This document shows positions 3,195 to 27,060 of a stretch of DNA of 64,000 bases, piece after piece. This stretch comes from Eledone cirrhosa (taxonomy: Eukaryota), in assembly GCA_964016885.1 (NCBI GenBank), contig OZ024743.1, forward strand, positions 218,116,001 to 218,180,000, written 5' to 3'. Under the pieces are notes generated by a model that was not told the DNA's origin, did not search any database, and worked only from the letters and a program-made list of their open reading frames with translations. The position numbers and the translations under genes were made by a program. The stretch's first letter is position 1. Each line of letters opens with the position of its first letter.

Positions 3195-3427
3195 ACGTAA
3201 TCAAACGTTTTACTATATTTTTTCCAAAATTCGATGGAGAAAAAATATTTCAAACGAATATTTCGCCCCTGTAGGGGCGAAAATGAGTTGACCCACCACC
3301 TGAAGGTCCAGACGGGGGGGTCAAGTTACACAATAACATAAAATTTAACTGAAAACTCACGTTTTTTTCTTACATAAATTAACGGAAACTTCTCCGCGAA
3401 GTTACATACGTCTGGTAGAGAGATAGA

Positions 3428-3708
3428 TAGATACATATGTTTCTTTTATTTGCCACCAGGGCATCAAAAGTGGGACAAGTACAATGGGGGGAGTTTACAA
3501 AACAAGGCGTCCTCAATAAGGAGGAGGCAATAACAATATATAAAAATAAAAAAAAAATAAAATATAACAAAAAATAAAATTTATAACAAAGTCCTCAATA
3601 GAGAGGAGGCGCCTTGGGGGGTCGCACACACCCCCGAAAAAAGTGTGCAACCCTTCTCCTCAGGAGCACAGAGAAGGGGTGCTCCCTTGGTCTTTCATCT
3701 TCCTCACC
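3428..3708 (-). mobile_element. Tx1-like 3' UTR fragment between GATA tracts
   Basis: Closely matches 26135-26420, which is attached to a Tx1 ORF2 C-terminus. On the minus strand it ends GCAAATAAAAGAAAC then TATC repeats. Confidence 0.8.
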
Positions 3709-3837
3709 TAGATAGATAGATAGATAGATAGATAGATAGATAGATAGATAAATAGATAGATAGATAGATAGATAGATAGATAGATAGATAGATAGATAGA
3801 TAGATAGATAGATAGATAGATAGATAGATAGATAGAT
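3709..3837. repeat. (GATA)n microsatellite
   Basis: Direct reading. Confidence 0.98.
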
Positions 3838-5305
3838 CATGGAGTCATTTTATTTCAAGATAACAGTTTACTGGTGATTAAGCGTTATTTCCGTTTATTT
3901 AATTACTTACGATTCAAACTACATGTGAGTAGAACGAGATTTTGTCTATTTTAAATGGTGTTAGTTTAAATAAGAACATTTTAAAATAAACTTAATACAA
4001 TTATTGACAATATTGATAGCACCACAAAATTATTTTTCCCATAATTTGAGAACATTTAAAGTTTGTAACTTTTTCAATGAAATATGATGTATGTATACAA
4101 GTTATAGAATTATGAATTCATATGACACTAATAATTTATCAAGTAAACAACATTTCTTAAAATAGAATCGTTTCTACGAGATGTATATATAACTTTGATA
4201 ATAGCTATATCTGAAATTTCTACTCATTTCTTCATTGTGTATTTACAACAAGGAGCTATTTCATTGAATAACACGACATAACATAAAGCGAAACAAGATA
4301 GGAAACCATTAGCGTACCATACATATATATTCAGCATAATGCACCACTAAAATATAGAATTAATAATGGAAGCAATATTTATAACATATACATGTTTGTG
4401 CGTGTCTATTGTGTATGCATATGGGCATATACATGCATATATATATATATATATATATATATATATATATATATATATATATATATATATATATATATAT
4501 ATATATCAAATCATCAAACGATTTTCCCCTAAAAAAAAGAATATTTACCCGAAAGCATTTTCCTCGTGATACTTTCCACAGCCGATAACTCTGAGAGTAG
4601 ATAGATAATGGCAACCATTCTTTCATATATATATATATATATATGAATGACTTCTACAGGACCAGAACAATTTCATTCGTATAAAATGGACACCCTAATG
4701 ATTTCATACAAATATAACAGTTCTAGTCTTGTAGAAGTCATTTTTATATGTAATAAAGATGCATATATTCTACCAATGTATTGAGTATCTTTTTTAATTC
4801 TGGTAACCCCGACACAGATATATATATATATATATATATACACATATATATATACATATATATATATATATATATATATATATATATATATATATATATA
4901 TATATATATATATATATATATATATAATTGTAAGAATTATATGATATATATATACTATATTTAATCGACATTGATGCTTATGCAAAATGTCAAACGGAAA
5001 ATGTCACTATAACATAGATGTGTAGCTTATGCAGTGCTGCAGATAAGAGAGATGTAAATATGTGACACAACTGCAAAGAAAGACTGTAAAATGGGTTTAT
5101 TACATCATAAAAGTTTCATTTCATTGGCTAAACAATTACCTGACGAAACAACTCAATTTAACTGCTAACGATTTGTTATAGCTTTCAGTGTCACATATAA
5201 CCACATATCAACATTGCTGCTACTGAAATCATGGTATTTTATATTTAACACTGTTCCTTTACAATCGCCACTCAGTATTATGAAGATATGTGAGAGAATG
5301 TAGAT

Positions 5306-5459
5306 AGGAAAGTGGACTAGAATGATCATAGGCTGACTATGAAGGAGTGATGCTAGAGATGTGAAATCTTATTAATTACTTCGTTGTTTCTCTCCAGGGA
5401 CTAGGTTGAAAAATAAACCTCATTTGGTCAGCCTATGAACTTTTCAGTCGACGCTCGTA
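5306..5459 (+). mobile_element. Mariner-derived MITE, decayed copy
   Basis: Ends AGCCTATGAACTTTTCAGTCGACGCTCG-TA. The body matches 38187-38404 and 42987-43177. Confidence 0.7.
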
Positions 5460-5569
5460 TCTGAGGTGATAACATGCTAAAACATCAATTCAAAGGACAG
5501 TAGTTGGTATCTTATCATAACCGTTCCTTCGTAGCGTTCTAGCTGAGTCTAAAGTCTGTTTTGAGCCCG

Positions 5570-5830
5570 GAGGCTCATTAGGCCAGTGCTTATCCCGTTT
5601 TCCGTGGCGTTAAGCAACTGAGAGTACAAGACTCTCCCTAGACAAGACGCCAGTCCACCACAGGGTTAATTCCCCTGTTTATTTTTGGTACTCATTTTCA
5701 GCTGAGTATCCAGGAGCAACGTGAAATGAAGTGTTTTGCTCAAGAACACTACACACAACCCCGTCCAGGAATCAAAACCACGACATTAAGGTCGTAAGTC
5801 CAACACCCTTACCACTAAGCCACGCGCTCC
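5570..5830 (-). mobile_element. tRNA-derived SINE (second family)
   Basis: The minus strand starts GCGCGTGGCTTAGTGG (box A), then a decayed box B, then TGTTCTTGAGCAAAACACTT. Relatives at about 19100-19300 (-) and 19678-19790 (+). Confidence 0.75.
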
Positions 5831-24981: not shown

Positions 24982-25183
24982 TTGAAGCATAAAAAAATAT
25001 TAAGCGAGAGAAGAAAGAAAGAAAGAAAGAAAGAAAAATAAATGAGTAGACAGATATATATATATATATATATATATATATATATATATATATATATATA
25101 TATATATATATCTGTCTACTCATTTATTTTTCTTTCTTTCTTTCTTTCTTTCTTCTCTCGCTTAATATTTTTTTATGCTTCAA
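24982..25183. repeat. Perfect ~200-bp palindrome (73-bp arms around a (TA)n centre)
   Basis: 24982-25054 is the exact reverse complement of 25111-25183. The ORF track gives the same peptide on both strands. Confidence 0.95.
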
Positions 25184-25514
25184 TATATATATATATATAT
25201 ATATATATATATATATATATGTATATATGTATATATATATATATATGTATATATATATATATATATATATATATATATATATATATATATATATATATAT
25301 ATATATATATATATATATGTATATATATATATGTATATATATGTATATATATATATATATATATATATATATATATATATATATATATATATATATATGT
25401 ATATATATATATATATATATATACATATATATATATACATACATACACACATATATATATATATATATATTAATTCAAAATATTAACAAAAATAGACATT
25501 CGTATGATCAAGTA

Positions 25515-25583
25515 TATTTTATTATACATATTTCAGAGGTACTGAGCAGTATCTTCAACAGTACGTCCTCATCAGATAAAATA
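25515..25583 (-). ncRNA. Minimal type I hammerhead motif (TATTTTAT family)
   Basis: Minus strand UAUUUUAU-CUGAUGA-GGACGUACUG..CAGUACCUCU-GAAA-UAUGUA-UA-AUAAAAUA. It lies in unit 25470-25615, homologous to 35800-35945. Confidence 0.8.
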
Positions 25584-25732
25584 AGATGATGCATGACATA
25601 CCCTGACTTAGTAGATGGTTAAGATTCAGTCATGGTAGTGAATAAGATATGACAAAACTCAATATTTATATACCTTAAGATTGAGACATGAAAAAATGTA
25701 CATATAATACAGAGCGTACGTGTGAGAAATCT

Positions 25733-26775
25733 TTAAAATACTCCCCACAGCGGCGTACAAAAATGGAACATTACAAGACGTGACGGCGGAGGTTTTACAT
25801 AAAAATCATATGCAATTAATAAATAACAATAAACTATACATAGAATAAAATAACAATCGAAATCCCTAATAGGGGAGGGAACGTTCCTGTGGGGTTGTTT
25901 TACATCCCGTGAATAGAAGATAGATAGATAGATTTCTTTATTTGCCACAAGGGCGCACAAAAAAGGGACAATACAAAGACATGCCGAGGATTTTACATAG
26001 AGTCGTGTAAAAATATTGAAACAAACAATTATAAAAATCGAAATCCCCAATAGGGGGGAGGCGCCACAAATGGGTTGTTTAATACCCCGTCGATAAAACA
26101 ACCCTAATCAACTTCAGGAGCGATAGTCAGATACATAGATATGTTTCTTTTATTTGCCACCAGGGCATCAAAAGTGGGACAAGTACAATGGGGGGAGTTT
26201 ACACAAAATATAAAAATAACAAAATATAAAAATAACAAAATATAAAAATAACAAAATATAAAAATTAAATAAAATATAACAAAGAATAAAATTTATAACA
26301 AAATCCTCAATAGAGAGGAGGCGCCTTGGGGGTCGCACACACCCCCGAAAAAAGTGTGCAACCCTTCTCCTCAGGAGCACAGAGAGGGGGTGCTCCCTCG
26401 TTCCTTCCTCTTTTCCACCTACAGGCTTATGTAAAGAGAAGGCCCATTCACACGGGCCATTCTCGCCACTTTCACCCATCTTTCATAAAAACGACTGGGG
26501 TGGAGCACCTCTCTCTCCATCCTGATCCTTCTTCCGAAATGATATCGGAAGAAACGGACCAGTTGTTGGCCAGAGAGAAAGGTGCCTGACCTCAGTCCTT
26601 TCAGACGCGTCCACCATACAACTTCTTTCACCATGGCTATTATGCACAGAAACACCGCCTTTCCTTCATCTTTGAAGGGGGGAGGCGGCTTGATCATTAC
26701 AATAGACTCGGTGGTCAACCGGATCGGTCCCACCCTTGACAGCAGTTGTTCGACATAGCCCCACAGATCGGCTAC
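25733..26775 (-). mobile_element. Three stacked 5'-truncated Tx1-like 3' ends separated by GATA repeats
   Basis: Related but diverged 3' UTRs at about 25733-25918, 25932-26120 and 26138-26775. The last includes an ORF2 C-terminus (LWGYVEQLL..KEVVWWTRLK..FYERW). Confidence 0.82.
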
Positions 26776-27060
26776 ATAGGATAGATACATAGTGTGGAAT
26801 CTTGGAAGCAGACAACGAAATAGACTGAAATACAAAACTTTATAGAACGAAAGAAGAAAGAAACAAAGAAAGAGAGATGGAAATATTGTAGAAAGAAGAA
26901 AAGAATTTTGGAATTGTTGAAAGTTGCATGGAAATATAGAAAATAAGTTAAAAGTTGAAAGTATGTACGTGTTTATGGAGAAAAGTATCTGAGCATTACA
27001 TTACTTTACATTACCTCATATAAAGTGTCTATGAGTTTCAGTATCTCTTTATATATGTAT

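What the first reader, a model, noticed from the sequence alone, without database searches (positions are those of the whole stretch)
3409..26790. Tx1-like LINEs appear to target (GATA)n and stack head-to-tail
Seen: five Tx1-type insertions in two clusters (two at 1-3708, three at 25733-26775), with GATA-type repeats at nearly every junction and the same polarity (element 3' end running into TATC). The three stacked 3' UTRs are diverged from one another, so they look like independent insertions by different subfamilies. Known: the Tx1 group includes sequence-specific families such as the microsatellite-targeting Kibi and Koshi. Inference: a (GATA)n-specific Tx1 lineage whose APE domain (504-1256) may encode this specificity. 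I cannot confirm whether it is already catalogued.
Basis: partly seen in the sequence, partly recalled or inferred. Interest (0 to 1): 0.72.

Follow-up and report, generated by a model that had tools for sequence, protein, structure and literature searches.

The report
LINEs that target GATA microsatellites
These five pieces are copies of an abundant jumping-gene lineage, in what is likely an octopus genome, that sit inside GATA repeats in one orientation and duplicate the landing site, so they pile up head to tail, likely because their own cutting enzyme reads the repeat; repeat-seeking relatives are known, but I did not find this target described, and a close sister family sits in ATT repeats instead.

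Summary
Confirmed. The five pieces belong to four subfamilies of one L1/Tx1-type LINE lineage, all on the minus strand. Genome-wide, 12,185 of 14,473 exact 3' termini are followed in fixed phase by TATCT. The tail-only explanation fails. (TATC)2 lies within 30 bp of 54 of 73 truncated, non-stacked 5' junctions, against 18 of 3,908 background windows. A position-ordered sample gave a lower 9 of 19. Target-site duplications of 10-20 bp start at TATCT and carry target-specific deviations on both sides (19 of 139 true pairs, 9 of 1,103 shuffled). Each insertion regenerates the target, which explains the stacking. Controls in the same genome: a sister family sits in (ATT)n and an R4/Dong-like element in (CATA)n. 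That the endonuclease sets the specificity is inferred, not shown; RNA-primer pairing probably helps. Microsatellite-targeting Tx1 families (Kibi, Koshi, crocodilian) are known. I found no (GATA)n target in 9 paper searches, but could not check Repbase or Dfam. This scan has already noted the family at eight or more other places in this genome.

The parts
1..3417 (-). Element A: 5' 3.4 kb of a full-length (about 5.76 kb) subfamily-A LINE; the rest continues left of the window (L031) to a 3' end followed by TATC x3. Dead copy: frameshifts in ORF1 and ORF2, and a deletion of about 75 bp near 245
   Evidence: 95% to other full-length A copies
1293..3205 (-). ORF1 of A (broken into two frames); weak CCHC zinc knuckle in sister copies
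   Evidence: 84-91% to a 643-aa intact ORF1; PF00098 E 0.26, below cut-off
504..1256 (-). APE-type endonuclease domain at the start of ORF2; catalytic motifs (N, E, Y, DxN, D, SDH) present; hairpin loop WSNRSGTSR
   Evidence: PF03372 E 2e-13; alignment to the L1-EN chimera 2v0s
3418..3437 (-). TATC/TC tract joining B's 3' end to A's 5' end
3438..3708 (-). Element B: 5'-truncated subfamily-E copy, 3' UTR only
   Evidence: 92-94% to E references
3709..3837 (.). (GATA)32 tract at B's 5' truncation point
   Evidence: TRF
25730..25918 (-). Element C: truncated subfamily-C 3' UTR, most diverged copy of the stack; 3' terminus damaged, no TATC repeat after it
   Evidence: 87-88% to C references
25919..25932 (-). 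TATC x3 tract joining D's 3' end to C's 5' truncation point
25933..26122 (-). Element D: truncated subfamily-D 3' UTR
   Evidence: 89-93% to D references
26123..26141 (-). Degenerate TATC tract joining E to D; reads as one TATC unit plus the 3' copy of E's likely target-site duplication
   Evidence: alignment by eye with 26776-26791
26142..26775 (-). Element E: truncated subfamily-E copy, end of ORF2 plus 3' UTR
   Evidence: 93-94% to E references
26776..26791 (-). TATC-type 5' flank of E; likely 5' copy of its target-site duplication (about 15-16 bp, 2-3 differences from the 3' copy)

Best explanation
An L1/Tx1-type LINE lineage (four or more subfamilies, over 14,000 3' ends) sits in one orientation in (TATC)n/(GATA)n microsatellites with 10-20 bp target-site duplications, likely because its APE endonuclease nicks the GATA strand at the repeat and likely helped by pairing of the freed GATA primer with UAUC letters at the RNA's 3' end. 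Shown: both-end association, fixed phase and polarity, duplications that start at TATCT, no poly(A) in the copies, same-orientation neighbours. Inferred: the nick lies at about 5'-GATA^GATA-3' (uncertain by up to 3 bases, because the element end and the target overlap). The RNA would run a little past AAUAAA into UAUC, and reverse transcription would start there, skipping any poly(A). Each insertion leaves target sequence at both ends, so later copies of any subfamily land beside earlier ones, which builds the head-to-tail stacks. In the right-hand stack the order was probably C, then D, then E.
For: 12,185 of 14,473 termini are followed by NN-TATCT. (TATC)2 within 30 bp: 82 of 113 3' ends, 74 of 97 resolved 5' ends and 54 of 73 truncated non-stacked 5' ends; opposite polarity 0 in each; background 18 of 3,908. 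Second A set: 46 of 54 3' ends and 39 of 46 5' ends, the latter including full-length ends. Upstream of any duplication (-50 to -21): 26 of 73. Informative duplications: 19 of 139 true pairs against 9 of 1,103 shuffled pairs, p 8e-13; 14 of the 19 start exactly two bases after GAAA. Deviations from TATC at positions +4 to +6 (L019, L077, L159, L160) appear in both copies, so those bases come from the target, not the RNA. L080 and L097 have an extra TATC unit at the 3' end where the 5' copy differs, which suggests RNA-templated units. Poly(A): 0 of 139. 43 of 120 copies have a Tx1 neighbour starting within 150 bp downstream, 40 of them in the same orientation. Controls: sister family S has ATT at 49 of 51 3' ends and TATC at 0 of 51; the GATA lineage has ATT at 0 of 139 at either end. 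The R4/Dong-like element has ACAT at 30 of 30 3' ends and 16 of 17 5' ends, TATC at none. Tx1L endonuclease nicks its target sequence-specifically in vitro (PMC1950540, passages).
Against: No biochemical test. The preference is not absolute: 16% of termini lack NN-TATCT, and some copies sit in (TC)n, (TA)n or TACC repeats or in isolated sites. A position-ordered sample gave only 17 of 30 (3') and 9 of 19 (5'), with 11 5' ends unresolved and several subfamilies missing from my references; the best-hit samples lean towards young copies. C at position -1, which RNA pairing cannot explain, is only a hint: 4 of 7 informative sites outside a TAT context, against 86 of 329 in background. The GATA and ATT lineages differ at few positions in the hairpin loop (RSG against RIG), and the endonuclease is 61-62% identical overall, so no determinant can be assigned. 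PMC1950540 argues that loop shape matters more than loop sequence for L1-EN.
Confidence: 0.72

Rival explanations
1. Primer-capture targeting: the endonuclease is loosely specific (for example for AT-rich microsatellite DNA), and the read-through (UAUC)n at the RNA's 3' end selects GATA-ended nicks by base pairing. The sister family's (AUU)n end would select ATT sites in the same way.
For: No poly(A) in 139 copies. Extra RNA-type TATC units in L080, L097 and likely window copy E. Positions +1 to +5 after the terminus are 129-137 of 139 conserved. The GATA and ATT families have almost the same terminus and hairpin loop. Every copy that lies in a tract would transcribe the repeat.
Against: 14 of 19 informative duplications start with no added unit, and some limit the RNA's share to 3-5 bases, which is little for selection by pairing alone. 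C at -1 lies across the nick from the primer. Endonuclease-set specificity is the published rule for APE LINEs (PMC4494074, passage citing Takahashi and Fujiwara 2002).
Confidence: 0.22
2. The GATA repeats are an element-encoded tail that seeds microsatellites at random sites; the stacks come from duplication or recombination.
For: A few cases look like tandem duplications (L054, L055). Full-length 5' ends share TCTCTC before the first unique base, so part of that tract may belong to the element.
Against: TATC lies at random 5' truncation points (54 of 73) and upstream of the duplication (26 of 73). The duplications themselves begin with TATCT. Stacked neighbours belong to different subfamilies.
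Confidence: 0.03
3. Passive accumulation: insertion is random and copies survive in microsatellite-rich DNA.
For: The genome is very rich in microsatellites (309 TRF rows in the window).
Against: Fixed phase and polarity. TATC is rare (about 0.5% of windows) beside TA and CA repeats. Distal flanks of the same loci are at background (11 of 1,915). Three families in one genome each keep to a different repeat.
Confidence: 0.03

Closest known systems
Kibi (TC)n and Koshi (TTC)n of teleosts; crocodilian Tx1 families on (TTCC)n/(TTTC)n (PMC4494074 passages and section 15; PMC3812793 passages)
   Same: APE-type Tx1-group LINEs that insert into microsatellites; pyrimidine-rich strand in element sense here; some copies here also land in (TC)n
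   Different: The target is (TATC)n/(GATA)n, which neither paper lists. The host is likely a cephalopod. In my RT tree the lineage lies outside the well-supported vertebrate clade that holds Tx1L and BAC82605, so the preference may have arisen separately. That BAC82605 is a Kibi or Koshi protein is recalled, not shown.
Tx1L of Xenopus laevis (P14381)
   Same: ORF1 plus ORF2 with EN, RT and a C-terminal CCHC motif; about 30% identity, 300-310 bits, against 165 bits for human L1 ORF2; sequence-specific insertion
   Different: Tx1L targets a unique site in a DNA transposon (PMC4494074 passage), not a repeat; ORF2 here is about 1,145 aa against 1,308
Waldo (ACAY)n, Mino (AC)n, Dong (TAA)n, Togen (TG)n (PMC3812793, PMC4640811 passages)
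   Same: Non-LTR retrotransposons that use microsatellites as targets
   Different: Other clades and other repeats; none lists GATA
Telomeric head-to-tail arrays (HeT-A/TART, TRAS/SART; recalled)
   Same: Polarised head-to-tail stacks; repeat targeting
   Different: Here the stacks are dispersed across thousands of internal sites and form in a regenerated microsatellite target

Membership tests
L1/Tx1 group of non-LTR retrotransposons (broad sense) | Two ORFs; ORF2 with N-terminal APE, RT and C-terminal CCHC | tested here: met
   PF03372, PF00078, PF13966 on an intact ORF2; 7 of 20 fetched copies have a 643-aa ORF1 plus 1,150-aa ORF2 frame; CCHC motif
L1/Tx1 group of non-LTR retrotransposons (broad sense) | 5' truncation and target-site duplications | tested here: met
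L1/Tx1 group of non-LTR retrotransposons (broad sense) | ORF2 closer to Tx1L/L1 than to other clades | tested here: met
   Tx1L 301-308 bits, human L1 165 bits, R2 68 bits or less. Other APE clades (RTE, CR1, I) were not compared directly.
Tx1 clade in the strict sense (Tx1L, Keno, Kibi, Koshi) | RT groups with Tx1L and named Tx1 families | tested here: inconclusive
   29-row RT tree: the octopod families plus unnamed marine proteins form a long branch outside the Tx1L/BAC82605 clade, in an unresolved backbone; no true L1 outgroup, midpoint root only
Microsatellite-specific Tx1 families (Kibi/Koshi type) | More than 20% of flanks carry the target (Kojima's criterion, PMC4494074 section 6 passage) | tested here: met
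   47-85% at either end, depending on the sample
Microsatellite-specific Tx1 families (Kibi/Koshi type) | Target is (TC)n, (TTC)n, (TTCC)n or (TTTC)n | tested here: not met
   The main target is (TATC)n; (TC)n is a minority
Microsatellite-specific Tx1 families (Kibi/Koshi type) | Endonuclease nicks the target specifically | not testable with these tools
   needs an in vitro assay
Catalogued Repbase/Dfam family | Consensus already deposited with target noted | not testable with these tools
   no Repbase or Dfam access; supplement of PMC4494074 not readable

The most novel reading that the evidence does not exclude
Octopods carry a previously undescribed L1/Tx1 lineage that evolved microsatellite targeting independently of Kibi/Koshi and recently switched target between (GATA)n and (ATT)n with an almost unchanged 3' end and about 62% identical endonucleases. 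With a (CATA)n-specific R4/Dong-like element, these LINEs divide the genome's microsatellites into separate self-renewing niches. The GATA/ATT pair, both with many intact reading frames, would allow a direct test of whether the endonuclease or the RNA tail sets a repeat target.
Probability: 0.5. Interest if true: 0.62.

Novelty: new variant of a known kind. Interest (0 to 1): 0.48.

Why it matters
How APE-type LINEs pick microsatellite targets is described as not well understood (PMC3812793 passage). Here two closely related, young families with different repeat targets give a natural swap experiment. Targeting also explains why LINE fragments cluster and stack at GATA tracts in this genome, and it warns that GATA microsatellite markers in such animals often lie at LINE ends. 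The kind of system is known, so the gain is a new target and a clean test pair, not a new mechanism.

Tried and rejected
Element-encoded tail with random 5' junctions: rejected. Passive accumulation: rejected. Flanks of the nearest non-cephalopod relatives (about 50% RT identity): two metagenome scans found no confirmed locus, so the ancestral target is unknown. Expression: no RNA holder listed, no evidence either way. Laying DNA contigs added only scattered TATC loose ends and was not used. The ESM Atlas gave only unnamed APE-RT clusters. Searches seeded with turtle and Tetraodon proteins returned Tx1L and BAC82605 but no protein named Kibi, Koshi or Keno. The first automatic 5' calls and the loose duplication filter (35 of 96 true against 71 of 572 shuffled) were replaced by subfamily references and a stricter filter. 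The exact nick position could not be fixed. The Tx1L endonuclease paper (PMC85248) was not held.
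Full report
OBSERVATION. The window lies at G000:C4:218116001-218180000 in a 3.0-Gb genome. The host is likely an octopod; this is an inference from the nearest named protein (Argonauta hians, 64% over RT), the genome size and the repeat landscape. Five LINE pieces lie on the minus strand at 1-3417 (A), 3438-3708 (B), about 25730-25918 (C), 25933-26122 (D) and 26142-26775 (E). Of six junctions in the window, four have two or more perfect GATA units, one is degenerate and one (C's damaged 3' end) has none. 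Left of the window, A ends in TATC x3 and joins an internally deleted D-type copy that ends in (TATC)n, so that stack has three members.

WHAT THE ELEMENTS ARE. Full-length copies are about 5.8 kb, with ORF1 (643 aa, weak zinc knuckle) and ORF2 (1,150-aa frame; APE, RT, CCHC). A, E, D and C are subfamilies that are about 76-85% identical in ORF2 DNA. They form one clade (100/98) apart from the sister family S, P0002 and the Argonauta protein. B and E are the same subfamily. The window's copies are broken or truncated, but the lineage is young: by my count 26 of the 150 best rows for A have a full 1,150-aa ORF2 frame, and 7 of 20 such copies fetched also have a full ORF1. All end in AATAAA(A)GAAA plus a subfamily-specific dinucleotide, with no poly(A) (0 of 139).

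TEST OF TARGETING. I took the 30 best loci for each of E, D, C and A. The D, C and A queries stopped short of the junction; the E query included its own junction. I dropped the four window copies and one duplicate, which left 115. The 3' terminus was found in 113, and 82 of these have (TATC)2 within 30 bp; none has GATA polarity. At the 5' side 18 were dropped as unresolved (7 ran off the locus, 10 continued into sense-strand element sequence, 1 into an inversion). Of the remaining 97, 74 carry (TATC)2. Among the 73 that are truncated and not stacked on another element's 3' end, 54 do, and 26 still do at -50 to -21, beyond any duplication. Background is 18 of 3,908 windows in the rest of the window and 11 of 1,915 in distal flanks (Fisher p below 1e-35). 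One row (L027) was anchored on a neighbouring E copy in its extended locus. Full-length A 5' ends have the repeat in 26 of 29, but they share TCTCTC before the first unique base, so part of that tract may be element-derived and I do not rest on them. A second A set gave 46 of 54 (3') and 39 of 46 (5', full-length ends included). A sample taken in genome order, not by score, gave lower values: 17 of 30 and 9 of 19, with 11 unresolved. Genome-wide, an exact terminus pattern for A/C/D-type ends occurs 14,473 times; 12,185 (84%) continue with NN-TATCT and 151 with NN-ATTATT. Of 10 of the latter examined, 7 matched sister family S best, 3 matched nothing and none matched a GATA subfamily. E-type ends are not counted by this pattern.

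TARGET-SITE DUPLICATIONS. Duplications with non-repeat information were found in 19 of 139 true pairs and 9 of 1,103 shuffled pairs. In most other copies both flanks are repeat sequence, so a duplication cannot be told apart. They are about 10-20 bp with 0-3 bases of 5' microhomology; two (L054, L055) look like tandem duplications. Fourteen start two bases after GAAA with TAT(C/A)T, and 13 of these have C before the 5' copy. Where the target departs from TATC at +4 to +6, both copies show the departure, so the junction repeat is genomic. L080, L097 and probably window copy E carry one extra TATC unit at the 3' end, which points to UAUC at the RNA end.

STACKING. 43 of 120 copies have another piece of the lineage starting within 150 bp downstream, 40 of them in the same orientation; 22 of 97 resolved 5' ends sit on another copy's 3' end. 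This follows from the duplication: each insertion leaves TATC on both sides, and one-strand polarity fixes the orientation. In the right-hand stack, E's likely duplication is made of the tract at D's 5' junction, and C is the most diverged, so the order was probably C, D, E (inference).

CONTROLS. Following a lead from earlier scan notes, I searched with P0002 and P0003 and recovered sister family S (about 73% DNA identity in ORF2). It has nearly the same terminus but ATT at 49 of 51 3' ends and TATC at none. Its full-length 5' ends carry ATT in 11 of 12. Its truncated 5' ends carry ATT in only 4 of 10, several of which look like internal deletions. The GATA lineage has ATT at 0 of 139 ends on either side. 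An R4/Dong-like element in this window (14866-16267) has ACAT at 30 of 30 3' ends and 16 of 17 truncated 5' ends, and never TATC. Each family keeps to its own repeat.

MECHANISM. Shown: position, phase, polarity, duplication, stacking. Inferred: target-primed reverse transcription from a nick on the GATA strand at about GATA^GATA, made by the APE domain, with short RNA-primer pairing. The endonuclease keeps its catalytic motifs. The hairpin loop implicated in target read-out for L1-EN and Tx1L-EN (PMC1950540, passages) reads RSG in subfamilies A, E and D and RIG in S; EN identity between the lineages is 61-62%, RT 75%. This difference fits the model but proves nothing. I give 0.72 to endonuclease-led targeting with RNA help and 0.22 to targeting led by primer capture.

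COMPARISON WITH WHAT IS KNOWN. PMC4494074 (passages, section 15; supplement unreadable, and it may list further targets) and PMC3812793 (passages) list Kibi (TC)n, Koshi (TTC)n, crocodilian (TTCC)n/(TTTC)n, Waldo, Mino and Dong; PMC4640811 (passages) adds Togen (TG)n. None names GATA as a target. PMC13282606 (passages) reports 13 recently active L1-Tx1 and 5 Dong-R4 families in Octopus vulgaris; the word search found no 'target site' or 'GATA' in it. PMC9115989 (passages) treats RTE and Dong without targets. PMC3747384 (passages) places Tx1 within the L1 clade. Nine paper searches found no GATA-targeting LINE; other listed papers were seen as listings only. Kojima and Fujiwara 2004 itself, Repbase and Dfam were not seen. 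ORF2 scores about 300 bits against Tx1L and 165 against human L1, but it does not join the vertebrate Tx1 clade in the tree. It works like Kibi and Koshi; membership in that sub-lineage is not shown.

VERDICT. It is a new target variant of a known kind of element, with a useful sister pair. The scan has noted it several times on other DNA of this genome; the counts above are my own. Interest 0.48.

Noticed in passing
window 14866-16267 (+): Very young 5'-truncated R4/Dong-like (RLE-type by recalled motifs; only zf-RVT by Pfam) LINE, 99.7-99.9% to other copies, with 40 of 40 scored hits at 100%. It sits in (CATA)n at both ends genome-wide (30 of 30 at 3', 16 of 17 at 5'): a second microsatellite-specific family.
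   Followed up: partly
window 16348-16952 (+): About 600-bp repeat bounded by (CATA)n, stacked directly after the R4/Dong-like copy; also found in the downstream flank of 12 of its 30 fetched copies. Possibly a non-autonomous partner with the same target.
   Followed up: partly
L305-L316, L215-L274: Sister family S: (ATT)n at both ends, self-stacking, many intact ORF2 frames (1,152-1,204 aa), two 5'-end variants.
   Followed up: yes
L031:3670-5640 (just left of the window): Internally deleted D-type copy (5' 1.7 kb joined to the last 0.3 kb) as third member of the left stack.
   Followed up: yes
window 10254-11732 (-): 9-bp-period minisatellite (10366-11706) open for 492 aa as a Thr/Ser-rich frame, and open in other frames too; could be a mucin-like exon or just a repeat.
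   Followed up: no
5' ends in L032, L135, L143-L154, L317-L336: Full-length copies of A, D and E all begin with a pyrimidine run (TCTC...) fused to the upstream (TATC)n, so transcription may start inside the tract or in the upstream copy.
   Followed up: no
G000 termini; proteins P0004-P0061: Further subfamily terminus types (TT, TG, TC after GAAA) exist beyond the four studied. The nearest outside relatives are unnamed proteins at about 45-52% RT identity whose targets are unknown.
   Followed up: partly
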